Of a stretch of DNA of 64,000 nucleotides, positions 48,471 to 53,296 are shown piece after piece. Made by a program: the position numbers and the translations under genes. Each line of letters opens with the position of its first letter. The stretch's first letter is position 1. The stretch is from NCBI RefSeq assembly GCF_053078305.1, contig NZ_CP166879.1; one strand, given 5' to 3'. The notes under the pieces were generated by a model. The model was not told the origin of the DNA. It saw only the letters and a list, made by a program, of their open reading frames with translations, and ran no database searches.

Positions 48471-48953
48471 ATGGCGATAAAAGGGCTTGATCAGGCGATT
48501 GATAATCTGAGCCGGGTTCGTAAAAACGCCATTCCTGCTGCTTCAGCAATGGCCATTAACCGCGTGGCCACAACGGCAATAAATCAGTCTGCGTCACAGG
48601 TTGCCCGTGAGACAAAGGTACGCCGGAAACTGGTAAAGGAAAGGGCCAGGCTGAAAAGGGCCACGGTAAAAAATCCGCAGGCCAGAATCAAAGTTAACCG
48701 GGGGGATTTGCCTGTAATCAGGCTGGGTAATGCGCGGGTTGTCCTGTCCCGACGCAGGCGACGTAAAAAGGGGCAGCGTTCATCCCTGAAAGGTGGCGGC
48801 AGTGTGCTTGTGGTGGGTAACCGTCGCATTCCCGGCGCGTTTATTCAGCAACTGAAAAATGGGCGGTGGCATGTCATGCAGCGTGTGGCCGGGAAAAACC
48901 GTTACCCCATTGATGTGGTAAAAATCCCGATGGCGGTGCCTGTAACCAGGTAA
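48471..48953 (+). pseudogene. Minor tail protein Z-like, truncated at codon ~157
   Basis: Near-identical to lambda gpZ up to ...VVKIPMAVP then diverges and stops; lambda gpZ is ~190 aa. Confidence 0.75.
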
Positions 48954-49245
48954 ATCATTTGATACCGACAAGGGTTTTAGTGAAAGGAGGTGAAATCACC
49001 TGTAAGATACTGAAATAAAACAGGTGATCGATGATTCTGGAGGTTGTTTAGTTTTGATACTGATTAAATAAAATCCGGTATAAAATTAAGGTATCGGCAA
49101 CAAATTTGATACTGCACATACTGCTTATGGACGTTTTTAAAAGTACTTAAAATGTCTTTTATGCTAAAAAGTTTATATCAATATCGATCTGGTCACAAAT
49201 CAAGTTGAAAGTGCTCGCTAAGTGCATAGCCTGGGCTTCATGGGG
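48941..49245 (+). repeat. Putative Mu-like left end (attL) with repeated TTTGATACYG motifs
   Basis: Motif at least four times in about 200 bp; begins 5'-TG where Z homology ends. Confidence 0.45.
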
Positions 49246-49764
49246 TTACGCTTTGGCTTCTTTATGGGTTAAATTGAAATGATGCTCCTTGGTTTCATCT
49301 CCCTCGAAAATCTCTCTAACCTTTTGATCTGATAAATTATTAAGGCTCAATGCTGCCAGGCGTCGAATACCTGTTAAAGCGATCAACTCTTGATTCTCTT
49401 GATTGCAGAATTCCAGCAATTTTTCTACCCCTTTCCTTCTCAAGGTGTAAATAACTAATTCTTGCTCTTCTTGGCTCAAAGTGTCGATGAGTTCGAGCAA
49501 CTCGCTATTGCCACCGTTCTTTTGAGGGGGCTGGTGTTTTATTTCTGCACTACCTGTAATGATGGAAACAACATGTGCAGGTAAGTCGCTTAAACGGTAG
49601 GCAAATGCTCTCCCTCTGATACCAGGTGTAGTTACCGAACGTTTTTCCCATCCTTCATTTTTTGCTCGTTTATGAAGCCCAGCCAGAGATGAAGGAAGAC
49701 CTCCAACCCCCAACAAGTCACTGGCAAGGATCCATTCTTGGTCAAGGATCATATCAAACTCCAT
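49246..49764 (-). CDS. Mu c-like repressor
   Basis: N-terminal ...LPSSLAGLHKRAK... domain shared with the transposase N-terminus. Confidence 0.7.
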   Translation of the reverse strand: MEFDMILDQEWILASDLLGVGGLPSSLAGLHKRAKNEGWEKRSVTTPGIRGRAFAYRLSDLPAHVVSIITGSAEIKHQPPQKNGGNSELLELIDTLSQEEQELVIYTLRRKGVEKLLEFCNQENQELIALTGIRRLAALSLNNLSDQKVREIFEGDETKEHHFNLTHKEAKA

Positions 49765-49981
49765 TTGATATTAACTTTTGTTTATATCTTTTATGCGGTT
49801 TATTTCAAAAATAACTCAATAAAAAACAAATAGATACAGAGCAAATTTAAAAATTTGAAATTAACCAGTTGATATTTACTAAGTTAATATCTAACATATC
49901 AAACATACACTAGTGAGTAACTCAATAGAGTAGCACACATGAGTAATAAAGTTTGCCATAGAAAGTACACAGGGGGCCATT

Positions 49982-50227
49982 GTGAGTCTTATTGAAGATT
50001 GGTCTTCCGCCGATATAAAGGCAGCCTTAGAAAAACGCGATACCAATTTGTCACGTTTATCAAGGGAAAATAATTTGCAGCCTAGGACTTTGGGTAATGC
50101 TTTGCGAGTTCCCTACCCTAAAGGTGAAAAGATAATTGCTAGGGCTATAGGTGTAGAGCCACAGGTTATTTGGCCTACTAGATATGAACGACGTGCGCGG
50201 AGGAAATATGTGGGTTGCAATGACTGA
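49982..50227 (+). CDS. ner: Ner-like DNA-binding regulator
   Basis: 81 aa; ...LSRLSRENNLQPRTLGNAL...KGEKIIARAIGVEPQVIWPTRY. Confidence 0.7.
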   Translation: MSLIEDWSSADIKAALEKRDTNLSRLSRENNLQPRTLGNALRVPYPKGEKIIARAIGVEPQVIWPTRYERRARRKYVGCND

Positions 50228-52292
50228 ATTGATTTCATTCAGTGACCTACCTAGTTCTTTGGCAGGTCTGCACAAAAAAGCAAAGAGGGAAGCGTGGAAA
50301 ACGCGGCTAAAACCAGGGGTAAAAGGGAAAGTTTTAGAGTGTGAAATAGGAGCTTTGCCTTTAACTGTTCAGCAGGCAGTACGCGAACGCCATGCCCTGC
50401 AACTGATGACGCAAAAAGCCGATGAATCACCGGCTCCGGTGGTGACAAAGGCCAGACGCTCACCTGCCGTGGTTGATGCGGTGGAGGCATATCGCGGATC
50501 ACCCCAACTGATGGTCGAACGCCTCAATGCCCTGACTGAAAATCAGCGCCAGGTGGCTGATGCACGAATCGCGATCGTCAGCGAAGTTCTGAAAGTCGCG
50601 CAACAACCTGGTTTCAGCTGTGCGAAGGCTATCCGGTTTATCGTTGACAACCTGGCACGTTCGCAGTTGGACGAGCGCATTGTGGCAATGGTTGAGACGG
50701 CGAACGCCAAAAAGGGAAACAGCCGCGCGTTAAGTGAAATCACGCTGAAACGCTGGATTGCGGCCTTTAACAAGGCGCAGAACGCCGCTGAACGCCTGCT
50801 TTTACTGGCACCGGGTAAGCGCCAGGAAATAAAAGCCGAAGATATTAACTGGCTGCCCGAATTTCTGGCGCAGTATCGCCAGTCAAACGGCCGACCAATG
50901 ACCGAGGCTTACGAGGATTTTGTCGCTGAATGGCAGCACCGGCACGCCGATGAGCCTTATATGCTCGATATCATGCCGTCTTATGACACCATTCGCCGCG
51001 CAATGAAGAAACTGCCGGAAGTGGTGAAACAAAAAGGCCGGGTGACCGGCAGTGAATACCGCCAGCTTGAGGGATTCACGCGCCGCGACTGGTCAAAAAT
51101 GCCGGTGAATTATGTCTGGATTGGTGACGGTCACGGCATGAAGCTGAAATGCGCACACCCGGTTCACGGTCGGCCATTTGCACCGGAAGTGACCTTTGTT
51201 ATCGACGGTGGCACGCGCTTTGTGGTGGGCTGGAGCCTTGACCTGGCTGAAAATGTTTTCGCCGTAGCCGGTGCCATACAGCACGGCATTCGCCATCACG
51301 GCAAACCGTTTCTGTATTACTCGGATAACGGCTCCGGGGAAACCGCCGACATCCTGGATAAGGAGGTTGTGGGGATACTGCCGCGACTGGGGATTAATCA
51401 CCCGACCGGGATTGCCGGTAATCCGCAGGGACGAGGCATTATCGAACGGCTTAACCGCACATTACCGATGCGCATAGCCCGTAAATACCGCACCTATTTC
51501 GGGAAAGGTGCAGATCGCGAGACGTTACGCAAAACCAACCGCGATTTACGCTCGGCATTTACTGCCCTGCAACAGGGCAAACGGCTGAACGCCCGGCAGC
51601 AGTCAGCGATGCGTGATTTACCGTCCTGGTCTGAACTGATTGATGCCATTCGTGACGGTGTTGAGTGGTACAACAACCGGCCGCACGATGAATTACCGGT
51701 GAAGCCGAACGGCAAGCATTACAGCCCGGCGGAGTTCAGAAAAAAACGCCTGGCGGAAGAGGACACGGAAATTGAATGGCTGTCCGATGTTGAGCTGCGG
51801 GATATGTTCCGGCCGATGGTGGAACGCCCTGTAAGACGCTGTGAAATACGCTGGCTGAATAATATTTACTACGCGCCCGAGCTGCGTGACGAGCATGGTC
51901 GTAAGGTGCTTATCAGCTATGACATTCATGATGCCGAACGAATTACCGTACGTCGCCTGGATGGCAGCGTGATTTGCGAGGCGGTATGGGACGGTAATAA
52001 ACGCGAAGCCTTCCCGGTTAGCGCGGAATACTACAAACAGCAGCAACGCCTTAAAGGCATGCGTAAACGCGCAGAGGAAAAAATCCGTGATGCCGAGGAT
52101 GAGGTTGTCAACGTGCTGGAGCACAAGCCGCAGGAGCCCTGGCTGGAAAACATATACCGCCCTGTGGGTAATACGGTGACCGTTCAGCAACCGGTCGCTG
52201 ACGATGAACCTGATGAAGAATACGAGCGTAATTTCCAGCGGGGATTGCAGTTGCTGGAAGCGAAATTAAAAGAAAATGACCCGCTGGCCTGA
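50208..52292 (+). CDS. MuA-like DDE transposase
   Basis: About 695 aa; repressor-like N-terminal domain; GGAGG RBS; start overlaps ner. Confidence 0.85.
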   Translation: MWVAMTELISFSDLPSSLAGLHKKAKREAWKTRLKPGVKGKVLECEIGALPLTVQQAVRERHALQLMTQKADESPAPVVTKARRSPAVVDAVEAYRGSPQLMVERLNALTENQRQVADARIAIVSEVLKVAQQPGFSCAKAIRFIVDNLARSQLDERIVAMVETANAKKGNSRALSEITLKRWIAAFNKAQNAAERLLLLAPGKRQEIKAEDINWLPEFLAQYRQSNGRPMTEAYEDFVAEWQHRHADEPYMLDIMPSYDTIRRAMKKLPEVVKQKGRVTGSEYRQLEGFTRRDWSKMPVNYVWIGDGHGMKLKCAHPVHGRPFAPEVTFVIDGGTRFVVGWSLDLAENVFAVAGAIQHGIRHHGKPFLYYSDNGSGETADILDKEVVGILPRLGINHPTGIAGNPQGRGIIERLNRTLPMRIARKYRTYFGKGADRETLRKTNRDLRSAFTALQQGKRLNARQQSAMRDLPSWSELIDAIRDGVEWYNNRPHDELPVKPNGKHYSPAEFRKKRLAEEDTEIEWLSDVELRDMFRPMVERPVRRCEIRWLNNIYYAPELRDEHGRKVLISYDIHDAERITVRRLDGSVICEAVWDGNKREAFPVSAEYYKQQQRLKGMRKRAEEKIRDAEDEVVNVLEHKPQEPWLENIYRPVGNTVTVQQPVADDEPDEEYERNFQRGLQLLEAKLKENDPLA

Positions 52293-52363: not shown

Positions 52364-53296
52364 ATGACTGATATTAACGATGTAATCAAGACCATTGATG
52401 AACTTATTGATGGCGGCGTACTGACGCAGTATGCCATCGCCAGAGAGGCGGGAATTTCCGACGGCACATTATCGGCTTTCCGTAAGGGAAAATATAAAGG
52501 CGATAACGCTGCTGTGGCTGCTTCCCTGCGTTCCTGGTATGAGAACTGGAATAAACAAAGCGCACTGCCGGAACCGCCGCAGTTTGTGGAAACGCAGACA
52601 GTCCAGGAGCTGCGCACACTGTTTCAGGCGGTTCGTCTGATGGGCTGTATTAACGTTATTGTGGGCGTACCGGGTGTGGGTAAAACGGCCACTGCCCGTA
52701 ATTACTGCCAGGAGCAACCAAACACCTGGATGATCACCCTGTCACCCGCGCACTCCAGCGTCACGGAGTGTCTGCTGGAGCTGGCCGATGCGCTGGGGAT
52801 TGATTACACCCGCGCGAACAAAGGGGCATTATCCCGCGCCATCCGCCGTCGCCTGATGGGAACGCGTGGACTGGTGATTGTGGATGAGGCGGATCATCTT
52901 GGTATTGACGGTCTGGAGCAACTCCGGGCAATTCAGGACGCCACGGGGATCGGGATGGTGCTTATTGGTAACCCGCGCGGATTGTTTAAAGGTGGACGCC
53001 GCGCCTTTGATGATTTATCGCGCCTGTTCAGCCGTCTTGCCCGTACAAAACAACTTCGCAAGGCCAAAAAGGCGGATGTGCTGGCCATTGCCAGTGCGTG
53101 GGGGATCAGTGGTGAGGCCGAGCTGGCCGTCATGCAGGCTATCGCTGAAAAGCCGGGAGCGTTACGCGTTCTGACACATACGCTTAACCAGGCGTGGCTC
53201 ACCGCCAGCGGTGAAGGCGCGGCGCTGACAGAAAAACATATTAATGCGGCCTTTAAAGAGGTTTATACCAACCCTGAATTACTCTCACAGGTGTGA
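52364..53296 (+). CDS. MuB-like AAA+ ATPase
   Basis: Walker A VGVPGVGKT, Walker B VIVDEADHL. Confidence 0.85.
   Translation: MTDINDVIKTIDELIDGGVLTQYAIAREAGISDGTLSAFRKGKYKGDNAAVAASLRSWYENWNKQSALPEPPQFVETQTVQELRTLFQAVRLMGCINVIVGVPGVGKTATARNYCQEQPNTWMITLSPAHSSVTECLLELADALGIDYTRANKGALSRAIRRRLMGTRGLVIVDEADHLGIDGLEQLRAIQDATGIGMVLIGNPRGLFKGGRRAFDDLSRLFSRLARTKQLRKAKKADVLAIASAWGISGEAELAVMQAIAEKPGALRVLTHTLNQAWLTASGEGAALTEKHINAAFKEVYTNPELLSQV

What the first reader, a model, noticed from the sequence alone, without database searches (positions are those of the whole stretch)
49246..50400. Repressor and transposase share an N-terminal DNA-binding domain across an AT-rich switch
The c-like repressor and the MuA-like transposase both carry ...LPSSLAGLHK(R/K)AK... 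near their N-termini, and the 49765-49981 intergenic region is AT-rich with repeated TGATAT/ATATCA elements. This is the classical Mu arrangement where repressor and transposase compete for related sites.
Basis: partly seen in the sequence, partly recalled or inferred. Interest (0 to 1): 0.3.

Follow-up and report, generated by a model that had tools for sequence, protein, structure and literature searches.

The report
Mu-type repressor/transposase immunity switch
The left end of a Mu-like prophage carries the textbook phage Mu control region, in which the lysogeny repressor and the transposase share a winged-helix DNA-binding domain on either side of an AT-rich operator region; this is ordinary for Mu-type phages, but here the whole unit is an exchangeable cassette.

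Summary
The repressor (49246-49764, minus strand) and the MuA-like transposase (50184/50208-52292) share an N-terminal domain: 23/55 identical residues, BLASTP E=4e-12. That equals the phage Mu c/MuA control (41%, E=6e-15). Both match Pfam PF02316 and the solved Mu repressor and MuA I-alpha domains, and a model of the repressor is a winged helix whose best PDB matches are 1TNS and 1QPM.

The 217-bp spacer is 27% G+C. It holds 4 exact TGATAT where 0.33 are expected (0 of 2000 local shuffles reach 4). These belong to a longer motif, WTTGAWATWAAC. Six copies keep their positions in three diverged lineages, forming two clusters about 104 bp apart, and the right cluster covers the only early-promoter-like site.

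A Ner homologue, a MuB homologue, a TG terminus and three left-end transposase sites complete the Mu layout.

New detail: 49029-50369 is a GC-poor cassette holding the repressor, operators, ner and the first ~54 transposase codons. Sibling prophages swap it at the same two junctions. Three sibling cassette types have CI/HTH_3-type repressors with no similarity to their own transposase N-terminus.

Competition of the two proteins for the same sites is inferred from Mu, not shown. This is a new member of a known kind, of low to moderate interest.

The parts
48941..49028 (+). Left terminus of the Mu-like prophage. It begins TGTAACC and contains an L1-like transposase site, TTTGATACCGA, at 48958-48968. 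All immunity types share this segment.
   Evidence: Homology with E. coli Z869 (L001) and with the annotated Mu-like insert of Stx1 phage LC727895 (L002) begins exactly at 48941.
49029..50369 (.). Exchangeable immunity cassette of 1341 bp, with G+C of 0.30-0.46. It holds the L2/L3-like sites, the repressor, the operators, ner and the first ~54 codons of the transposase.
   Evidence: Sibling prophages of types Y, C and F are 94-98% identical up to 49028 and again from 50370 (type C from 50382), but are unalignable in between. Only 12 of 249 E. coli records that match the transposase core carry this cassette.
49053..49114 (+). L2- and L3-like transposase end-binding sites, TTTGATACTG at 49053-49062 and 49105-49114, in the same orientation as L1.
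   Evidence: Direct repeats D12 and D14. The same motif recurs at equivalent places in the otherwise unrelated type-Y cassette. It also occurs inverted three times at the right end in Z869.
49171..49181 (-). Isolated operator-like site, TTGATATAAAC, between the L3-like site and the 3' end of the repressor gene.
   Evidence: It is one of only five exact matches to TTGAWATWWAC in the 64 kb window, all of them inside the cassette. It is 93% complementary to 49765-49779 (I7). It is absent from RM9088.
49246..49764 (-). Lysogeny repressor of the Mu c type. The ORF is 172 aa; the probable start is M5 at 49752, giving 168 aa. The winged-helix DNA-binding domain is about 49555-49752. The family-specific C-terminal domain is about 49279-49503.
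   Evidence: PF02316 E=1.5e-6. phrog_7148 'transcriptional repressor' E=2e-46. Mu c similarity is 32% over 53 aa, E=1e-9, in the N-terminus only. The AlphaFold model has a DNA-binding domain at pLDDT 83-88 and its best PDB matches are 1TNS and 1QPM. The C-terminus is 38-40% identical to that of CI-type repressors of sibling cassettes. A GGAG sits 6 nt before M5, and RefSeq and the RM9088 homologue both start there.
49746..49810 (.). Left operator cluster. The conserved sites are a 49746-49759 (-), b 49763-49776 (+) and g 49797-49810 (-). Site c, 49779-49792 (-), is not conserved. The cluster overlaps the repressor ribosome-binding site and start codon.
   Evidence: Repeat families D6, D15, I9, I17 and I19. 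The site positions are kept in 5 sequences from 3 lineages.
49853..49904 (.). Right operator cluster. The conserved sites are h 49853-49866 (+), d 49867-49880 (+) and e 49882-49895 (-). Site f, 49891-49904 (-), is not conserved. Sites d and e form the 21-bp near-palindrome GATATTTACTAAGTTAATATC at 49871-49891.
   Evidence: The block 49852-49898 is invariant in RM9088, whose spacer otherwise diverges.
49869..49897 (+). Candidate early promoter, Pe-like: TTGATA, 17 nt, TAACAT. Sites d and e cover it.
   Evidence: It is the only plus-strand sigma-70-like match in 48900-50300. Both hexamers are conserved in RM9088, L033 and L035. No experiment supports it.
49982..50227 (+). Ner-type early regulator (GTG start, 81 aa). 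Its 3' end overlaps the transposase start by 20 nt.
   Evidence: PF13693 HTH_35 E=6.7e-27. It is 53% identical to Mu Ner, E=3e-24.
50208..52292 (+). MuA-like DDE transposase, 694 aa from M9 (the ORF opens at 50184). The cassette-specific I-alpha-like winged helix spans 50208-50369.
   Evidence: PF02316 and PF09299 Mu-transpos_C. phrog_310 E=1.5e-205. MuA similarity is 21% over 394 aa, E=4e-9. 1TNS matches at E=1.3e-5. GGAGG lies 4 nt before the ATG at 50208, and RefSeq uses the same start.
52364..53296 (+). MuB-like AAA+ transposition ATPase.
   Evidence: PF09077 Phage-MuB_C E=3.6e-25 and AAA_22.

Best explanation
This is the immunity and transposition control region of a Mu-like (Sp18-type) prophage, and it is built like that of phage Mu.

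Proposed mechanism:
1. In the lysogen, the leftward-transcribed repressor binds through its N-terminal winged helix to repeated WTTGAWATWAAC sites. These lie in two clusters about 104 bp apart in the AT-rich spacer.
2. The right cluster covers the early promoter, so ner, the transposase and MuB stay silent.
3. The transposase carries a homologous winged helix as its first ~55 residues. By analogy with MuA domain I-alpha, it uses the same operator region as a transposition enhancer while its other domains hold the TTTGATAC end sites.
4. Repressor on the operators would therefore block both early transcription and transpososome assembly.

Shown here: the homology, the fold, the gene order, the motif enrichment and conservation, and the cassette structure.

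Inferred: which protein binds which site, the promoter, and the competition itself.
For: Homology and fold
- The pair shares 42% identity over 55 aa, E=4e-12, equal to Mu's own pair.
- Both proteins match PF02316 and the PDB entries 1G4D and 1TNS.
- The AlphaFold model with Foldseek gives 1TNS and 1QPM as the only confident matches. The identical stretch SLAGLHK(R/K)AK falls on helix 23-33 of the winged helix.

Layout
- Gene order matches Mu: end sites, c, spacer, ner, A, B.
- Ner is 53% identical to Mu Ner.
- The terminus begins TG, with three same-orientation end sites at about 18, 113 and 165 bp from the end.

Operator motif
- TGATAT occurs 4 times against 0.33 expected, and TTGAWAT 6 times against 0.28; 0 of 2000 shuffles reach either count.
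- Six sites keep their positions in three lineages with 57-79% identical repressors, while the spacer between the clusters diverges.
- A far relative, L068, whose repressor is 38% identical, again has a homologous pair (E=3e-10) and TTGATATAAAC-like repeats. Its helix residues change in parallel in both proteins.
- The sole promoter-like site is overlapped by sites d and e.

Cassette
- The transposase N-terminus is inherited together with the repressor and operators as one cassette.

Literature
- Mu Rep shares homology with the transposase (PMC3820752, citing Harshey 1985 and Mizuuchi 1986).
- MuA I-alpha domains bind the enhancer O1-O2 (PMC3562280).
- The AT-rich segment to the right of c is the enhancer (PMC5977238).
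Against: - There are no binding, transcription or transposition data for this phage.
- The d/e palindrome centre, ACTAAGT, resembles the Mu Ner half-site ANYTARCTAAGT. This could be a Ner operator instead, although the match is not above chance.
- No leftward promoter for the repressor was found.
- The single IHF consensus match, 49862-49874, is a by-product of sites h and d and is not conserved in L033 and L035.
- Three sibling cassette types work with CI-type repressors unrelated to their transposase N-terminus. A shared domain is therefore not required in this phage family.
Confidence: 0.8

Rival explanations
1. The two proteins share ancestry but do not share sites. The domains are homologous, yet the transposase N-terminus recognises a different set of sequences (a separate enhancer) from the repressor. 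Repression would then act only on transcription.
For: - The wing regions differ between the two proteins: the repressor has a wing two residues longer, SVTTPGIRGR against LKPGVKGK.
- Sibling cassettes pair an I-alpha-type transposase N-terminus with a CI-type repressor of a different fold. Repressor and transposase can therefore read the region with unrelated domains.
Against: - The predicted recognition helix is nearly identical in the two proteins (11 of 13 residues) despite different codons.
- It is conserved, or changes in parallel, across lineages.
- In Mu, I-alpha and Rep both bind O1-O2 (PMC3562280, PMC3820752).
Confidence: 0.12
2. The repeated TTGATAT-type elements are not repressor operators. 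They would instead be promoter hexamers (TTGATA resembles the -35 box TTGACA), Ner sites or host-factor (IHF, H-NS) sites in an AT-rich regulatory spacer.
For: - One copy is the -35 hexamer of the only promoter-like hit.
- An IHF consensus overlaps sites h and d.
- The palindrome centre resembles a Mu Ner half-site.
Against: - Eight copies in both orientations within 160 bp are far more than promoters need.
- Six are positionally conserved, including those over the repressor start codon.
- All exact matches to the extended motif in 64 kb lie inside the cassette.
- Mu's own operators are likewise short motifs repeated in both orientations (sequence; the operator consensus is from the author's knowledge).
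Confidence: 0.07
3. Both the peptide similarity and the hexamer repeats are chance or composition artefacts.
For: The region is AT-rich, and TGATAT is a common hexamer in the window as a whole: 78 copies against about 28 expected.
Against: - The pairwise E-value is 4e-12.
- Both proteins independently pass the curated Pfam threshold for the same family.
- A structural match supports the fold.
- 0 of 2000 local shuffles reach the observed hexamer count.
Confidence: 0.01

Closest known systems
Phage Mu c repressor, MuA domain I-alpha, and the operator/enhancer O1-O2 (IAS)
   Same: - Same gene order and distances from the left end.
- Same winged-helix fold in both proteins (PF02316; 1QPM/1G4D and 1TNS).
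- Same within-phage similarity, about 41-44%.
- An AT-rich spacer with short motifs repeated in both orientations.
- Ner and MuB homologues, and three left-end sites.
   Different: - Sequence is distant: the repressor is 32% identical in the DNA-binding domain only, and the transposase is 21% identical.
- The operator motif differs: WTTGAWATWAAC here against Mu's CTTTT-type motif.
- The end sites differ: TTTGATAC.
- The repressor C-terminal domain is unrelated to Mu c and is shared instead with CI-type repressors of sibling phages.
- No conserved central IHF site was found.
Phage D108 compared with Mu (heteroimmune pair)
   Same: Immunity differences map to the repressor, ner and the N-terminus of the transposase. 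Each phage's repressor resembles its own transposase (title of Mizuuchi et al. 1986, as cited in PMC3820752; SfMu/D108 comparison in PMC4406740). The cassette 49029-50369 behaves the same way.
   Different: At least four cassette types circulate on one 92-99% identical transposase core. Three of them have repressors with a CI/HTH_3 domain that is not homologous to the transposase N-terminus. This is not the case for Mu and D108.
Sp18-type Mu-like prophages of E. coli O157 and the Mu-like inserts in Stx phages (LC727881, LC727895)
   Same: The transposase core, MuB and downstream genes are 97-99% identical, and the left terminus is the same.
   Different: The Stx-phage inserts examined carry a different immunity cassette (type Y). 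The window's cassette occurs in only 12 of 249 matching E. coli records. Whether Sakai Sp18 itself carries this cassette was not checked.
D3112-group Pseudomonas transposable phages
   Same: Mu-like order, with a leftmost divergent repressor (PMC5977238).
   Different: From the author's knowledge, the repressor there is lambda-CI-like. It resembles the sibling cassettes Y, C and F, not the window's cassette.

Membership tests
Mu-type repressor/transposase pair sharing the I-alpha winged helix | Both proteins carry an N-terminal Mu DNA-binding domain (PF02316, winged helix-turn-helix). | tested here: met
   - Pfam gives 29.0 and 34.8 bits against a cut-off of 23.3.
- PDB sequence matches to 1G4D and 1TNS.
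- The AlphaFold model's top Foldseek hits are 1TNS and 1QPM, both at probability 1.00.
Mu-type repressor/transposase pair sharing the I-alpha winged helix | Significant direct similarity between the repressor and its own transposase N-terminus. | tested here: met
   42% identity over 55 aa, E=4e-12. The Mu control gives 41% over 64 aa, E=6e-15. Relatives L003, L033 and L035 give E of about 1e-13, and L068 gives 3e-10.
Mu-type repressor/transposase pair sharing the I-alpha winged helix | Divergent layout near the left end: repressor leftward, then operator spacer, ner, A and B rightward. | tested here: met
   ORFs and domains, the end at 48941, and the side-by-side comparison with the annotated Mu record.
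Mu-type repressor/transposase pair sharing the I-alpha winged helix | Repeated operator sites in the spacer that overlap the early promoter. | tested here: inconclusive
   Motif enrichment, positional conservation and overlap with a consensus promoter match all fit. However, neither the sites nor the promoter have been mapped experimentally.
Mu-type repressor/transposase pair sharing the I-alpha winged helix | The transposase N-terminal domain binds the operator region as a transposition enhancer, and the repressor competes with it. | not testable with these tools
   Known for Mu (PMC3562280, PMC3820752). Here there is only indirect support: a nearly identical predicted recognition helix, and co-inheritance of the domain with the operators.
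Transposable (Mu-like) phage | A DDE transposase with the Mu C-terminal domain, together with a MuB-type ATPase. | tested here: met
   PF09299 E=1.5e-17, weak rve hits, similarity to MuA at E=4e-9, and PF09077 E=3.6e-25.
Transposable (Mu-like) phage | TG...CA termini with multiple transposase sites, and insertion at unrelated host positions. | tested here: met
   - The left end begins TGTAACC at 48941, with three TTTGATAC sites.
- The right end in Z869 reads ...TCATTTACA, with three inverted GTATCAAA sites.
- The flanks differ in every genome: lambda Z here, and nrfA, meaB and others elsewhere.
- A target duplication is annotated in LC727895.
- The right end of this copy lies outside the window.
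Lambda CI / S24-type SOS-cleavable repressor | A CI/HTH_3 DNA-binding domain plus a C-terminal S24 peptidase domain. | tested here: not met
   Neither an HTH_3 nor an S24 hit was found for the window's repressor. The sibling cassettes have HTH_3/Phage_CI_repr but also no S24 hit.

The most novel reading that the evidence does not exclude
In this Sp18-type family, the enhancer-reading I-alpha domain of the transposase belongs to the exchangeable immunity cassette whatever fold the repressor uses. The window's repressor would then be a chimera: a transposase-type winged helix joined to the family's common C-terminal domain, which elsewhere carries a CI-type helix-turn-helix. If so, a shared DNA-binding domain is one of at least two interchangeable ways of coupling immunity to transposition. 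The four natural cassettes on one near-identical transposase core would form a ready-made domain-swap series. That series could test whether direct repressor/transposase competition at the enhancer matters.
Probability: 0.45. Interest if true: 0.45.

Novelty: new member of a known kind. Interest (0 to 1): 0.3.

Why it matters
There is some modest value beyond that:

- It extends the shared-domain arrangement to a distant lineage (transposase about 21% identical to MuA) that is common in pathogenic E. coli, Shigella and Salmonella. There the repressor is annotated only as 'DNA-binding protein'.
- It gives a candidate operator motif and precise cassette junctions.
- Heteroimmune siblings replace the repressor's DNA-binding domain with an unrelated fold while still exchanging the transposase N-terminus. 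This offers a natural test of how tightly immunity and enhancer recognition are coupled.

The prophage also sits inside, and truncates, the tail gene Z of a lambdoid prophage. That bears on the inactivation of resident prophages.

Tried and rejected
- **Operator motif the same as the end-site motif?** In the window the operator core TTGATAT resembles the end site TTGATAC. I rejected a link for two reasons. The end motif is conserved in cassettes with unrelated operators. RM9088 keeps the operators but has different end sites, TTCAAGATAA.
- **IHF site between the clusters, as in Mu.** The only consensus match, 49862-49874, overlaps sites h and d and is not conserved. This is unsupported.
- **Ner operator by the Mu consensus ANYTARCTAAGT.** I verified the consensus in Mu at 1029-1040 and 1047-1058. 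The window matches have 2 mismatches and are fewer than chance expects (19 against 30). This stays unresolved.
- **Repressor promoter.** No minus-strand sigma-70-like hit lies in the spacer, and manual inspection found only weak candidates.
- **Terminators.** None were found.
- **Target duplication.** It cannot be checked here, because the right end lies beyond the window. In Z869 the two flanks do not match. I did not pursue this.
- **Original papers.** Harshey 1985, Mizuuchi 1986, and two items I looked up under remembered or cited PMC ids (PMC4486318, intended as a Harshey review of phage Mu, and PMC4213243, Choi 2014) are not held in the library. Harshey 1985 and Mizuuchi 1986 are cited only through PMC3820752.
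- **Repressor C-terminal domain.** It has no confident structural match and no significant similarity to the Mu c C-terminus.
Full report
**What is at the coordinates**

The span 49246-50400 lies at the left end of a Mu-like prophage. Homology with an E. coli O157:H7 chromosome (L001) begins at window position 48941 with TGTAACC. Homology with a Mu-like insert that its authors annotated inside an Stx1 phage (L002) begins at the same position.

To the left of 48941 are lambdoid head and tail genes: capsid protein E, a head-tail attachment protein, and tail protein Z. Gene Z matches only positions 1-157 of the 190-position Pfam model, so the Mu-like element has inserted into it.

Reading rightward from the end, the elements are:
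- Three same-orientation TTTGATAC(C/T)G sites, at 48958, 49053 and 49105.
- A leftward ORF, 49246-49764.
- A 217-bp spacer.
- A Ner-type gene, 49982-50227 (PF13693, E=6.7e-27).
- A transposase, 50184-52292 (PF02316 and PF09299).
- A MuB-type ATPase, 52364-53296 (PF09077).

The annotated phage Mu record has the same order and similar distances.

**Checking the observation**

BLASTP of the two ORFs gives 23/55 identities and E=4e-12. Mu's own c/MuA pair, run as a control, gives 41% over 64 residues and E=6e-15.

Several independent tests agree:
- Each protein passes Pfam's curated threshold for PF02316.
- Each matches the sequences of the solved Mu repressor domain (1G4D/1QPM) and MuA I-alpha domain (1TNS/1TNT).
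- Each cross-hits the other's PHROG family.

An AlphaFold model of the repressor was built on 17 homologues. The DNA-binding domain has pLDDT of 83-88; the whole chain averages 68. The domain shows strand, helix, helix 23-33, strand, wing, strand. The only confident Foldseek matches in the PDB are 1TNS and 1QPM. The stretch that is identical in the two proteins, SLAGLHK(R/K)AK, falls on helix 23-33. I take this to be the recognition helix by analogy with the Mu structures; that assignment comes from knowledge, not from a test here.

Twelve of the 23 identical residues use different codons, and nucleotide identity is 55%. The similarity is therefore old and maintained at the protein level. It is not a recent duplication or gene conversion.

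**The AT-rich switch**

G+C is 0.27-0.28 in the spacer and about 0.55 in the transposase core.

TGATAT occurs four times in 49745-49981, against 0.33 in local dinucleotide-preserving shuffles; none of 2000 shuffles reaches four. The hexamer is the core of a longer element, roughly WTTGAWATWAAC, which has eight copies in the window.

I aligned the spacer with four relatives from three lineages whose repressors are 57-79% identical. Six sites keep their positions:
- Left cluster: a 49746-59 (-), b 49763-76 (+), g 49797-810 (-).
- Right cluster: h 49853-66 (+), d 49867-80 (+), e 49882-95 (-).

The roughly 45 bp between the two clusters diverges freely. The clusters are about 104 bp apart.

The left cluster overlaps the repressor's ribosome-binding site and start codon. 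Sites d and e form a 21-bp near-palindrome lying between the hexamers of the only early-promoter-like match, TTGATA-17-TAACAT at 49869-49897.

All five exact matches to TTGAWATWWAC in the 64 kb lie inside the cassette, including an isolated one at 49171-49181. The extended motif was derived from these sites, so only the TGATAT count is an unbiased statistic.

**Separating operators from end sites**

The end sites (TTGATAC) look like the operator core (TTGATAT), but two controls separate them.
- The end motif recurs in a sibling cassette whose operators are unrelated, and inverted at the right end.
- RM9088 keeps the operator block unchanged but has different end sites, TTCAAGATAA.

**Start codons**

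The repressor most likely starts at M5 (49752). A GGAG lies 6 nt upstream. RefSeq starts the E. coli orthologues there, and in RM9088 it is the first start of the ORF.

The transposase most likely starts at M9 (50208), preceded by GGAGG. This makes it overlap ner by 20 nt.

**The region is an exchangeable cassette**

In E. coli complete genomes, 249 records match the transposase core but only 12 carry the whole query. I examined 61 related viral contigs. Sibling prophages are 94-98% identical up to 49028 and again from 50370 (type C from 50382), and unalignable in between.

The cassette 49029-50369 is GC-poor. It contains the L2/L3-like sites, the repressor, the operators, ner and the first ~54 codons of the transposase. 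That is exactly the I-alpha-like domain.

At least four cassette types exist. In the window's type, the pair is homologous in every lineage examined: E of about 1e-13, and 3e-10 in a far relative, L068. In L068, residues of the helix change in parallel in the two proteins and the spacer again holds TTGATATAAAC-like repeats.

The other three types differ:
- The transposase N-terminus is still PF02316.
- The repressor has an HTH_3/Phage_CI_repr domain.
- The repressor shows no similarity to its own transposase N-terminus; no hit appears even at E<=10.

The window's repressor shares its C-terminal domain (residues 88-162) with two of these CI-type repressors: 38-40% identity, E=2e-15 and 4e-11. 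It does not share it with Mu c. The window's repressor is therefore a mosaic of a Mu-type winged helix and a family-specific C-terminal domain.

The identity matrix points the same way. The window's transposase N-terminus is closer to its own repressor (40-47%) than to the N-termini of sibling transposases (27-35%), even though their cores are over 90% identical.

**How it most likely works**

By homology with Mu:
1. The repressor occupies the two site clusters in the lysogen and shuts the early promoter.
2. The transposase uses its related N-terminal domain to engage the same region as a transposition enhancer, while its other domains hold the ends. Bound repressor would therefore also block transpososome assembly.
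3. Ner then modulates early and repressor transcription.

The literature held here supports the Mu side of this analogy:
[quoted passage not shown] 1985 and Mizuuchi et al. 1986).
- Six MuA subunits bridge the ends to the enhancer O1-O2 through their I-alpha domains (PMC3562280).
- The AT-rich segment to the right of c holds the enhancer (PMC5977238).

For this phage, the binding assignments, the promoter and the competition are all inferences.

**Uncertainties**

- The palindrome centre, ACTAAGT, resembles the Mu Ner half-site. I verified that half-site in Mu itself, but the window match is not above chance. Sites d and e might therefore belong to Ner.
- No repressor promoter and no conserved IHF site were found.
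- The existence of working sibling cassettes with unrelated repressor domains shows that a shared domain is not obligatory in this family.

**Verdict**

The window's copy is a new member in a distant, poorly annotated lineage. Its homologues in E. coli, Shigella and Salmonella are named only 'DNA-binding protein'. Interest is low to moderate. It is raised slightly by the cassette structure and by the contrast with the heteroimmune siblings.

Noticed in passing
window 48471-48953 (junction at 48941): The Mu-like prophage is inserted into tail gene Z of a lambdoid prophage. Z matches only positions 1-157 of the 190-position PF06763 model. Capsid E and head-tail attachment genes lie just upstream. 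The insertion should inactivate tail assembly of the resident prophage. Viral contig L006 (IMGVR_UViG_2617271340_000001) shows the same junction at 100% identity.
   Followed up: partly
L002 2862-3467/3833-; L011 2940-3638/~3992-; L030 3038-3583/~3980-: Sibling prophages have a 92-99% identical transposase core but carry other immunity cassettes (types Y, C, F). Their repressors have an HTH_3/Phage_CI_repr domain and no detectable similarity to their own transposase N-terminus. That N-terminus is still a Mu I-alpha-type domain and still changes with the cassette.
   Followed up: partly
window 49279-49503 (-): The repressor's C-terminal domain is unrelated to Mu c. It is 38-40% identical to the C-termini of the type-Y and type-F CI-type sibling repressors, so the repressor family has swapped DNA-binding domains on a common C-terminal module. 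No S24 peptidase domain is present, so SOS autocleavage is unlikely.
   Followed up: partly
window 49171-49181 (-): An isolated exact operator-like site, TTGATATAAAC, lies between the L3-like end site and the 3' end of the repressor gene. It is absent from RM9088. It could be a repressor site near the left end; Mu Rep is reported to bind the ends.
   Followed up: no
window 48958-49114 compared with 49746-49904: The end-site motif TTTGATAC(C/T)G and the operator core TTGATAT differ by one base in this phage. RM9088 combines the same operators with different end sites (TTCAAGATAA), so the resemblance looks coincidental.
   Followed up: yes
window 49871-49891: The 21-bp near-palindrome in the promoter spacer has the centre ACTAAGT, as in the Mu Ner half-sites (Mu 1029-1040 and 1047-1058). 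The match is statistically weak, and whether the repressor or Ner binds here is open.
   Followed up: partly
L011 3177-3635 compared with L012: Two type-C prophages share the spacer, ner and transposase N-terminus at 98% identity. They differ only in the part of the repressor gene that encodes the N-terminal domain. This is a second, smaller exchange unit inside a cassette.
   Followed up: no
L001 5930-5941 and L067 1724-1735 (E. coli Z869): The sequences flanking the two ends of the Z869 copy (…ACATCA | … | GAATTT…) do not show a matching 5-bp duplication, and both flanking genes are annotated as partial. The genome holds three matching places, so a rearrangement between copies is possible.
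   Followed up: no
window 49905-49966: Blocks conserved in all five aligned spacers lie downstream of the promoter-like site: ACACTAGTGAGTAACTC and GAGTTTGCCATAGAAAG. Their role is unassigned. Candidates are a leader element, the repressor promoter or Ner sites.
   Followed up: no
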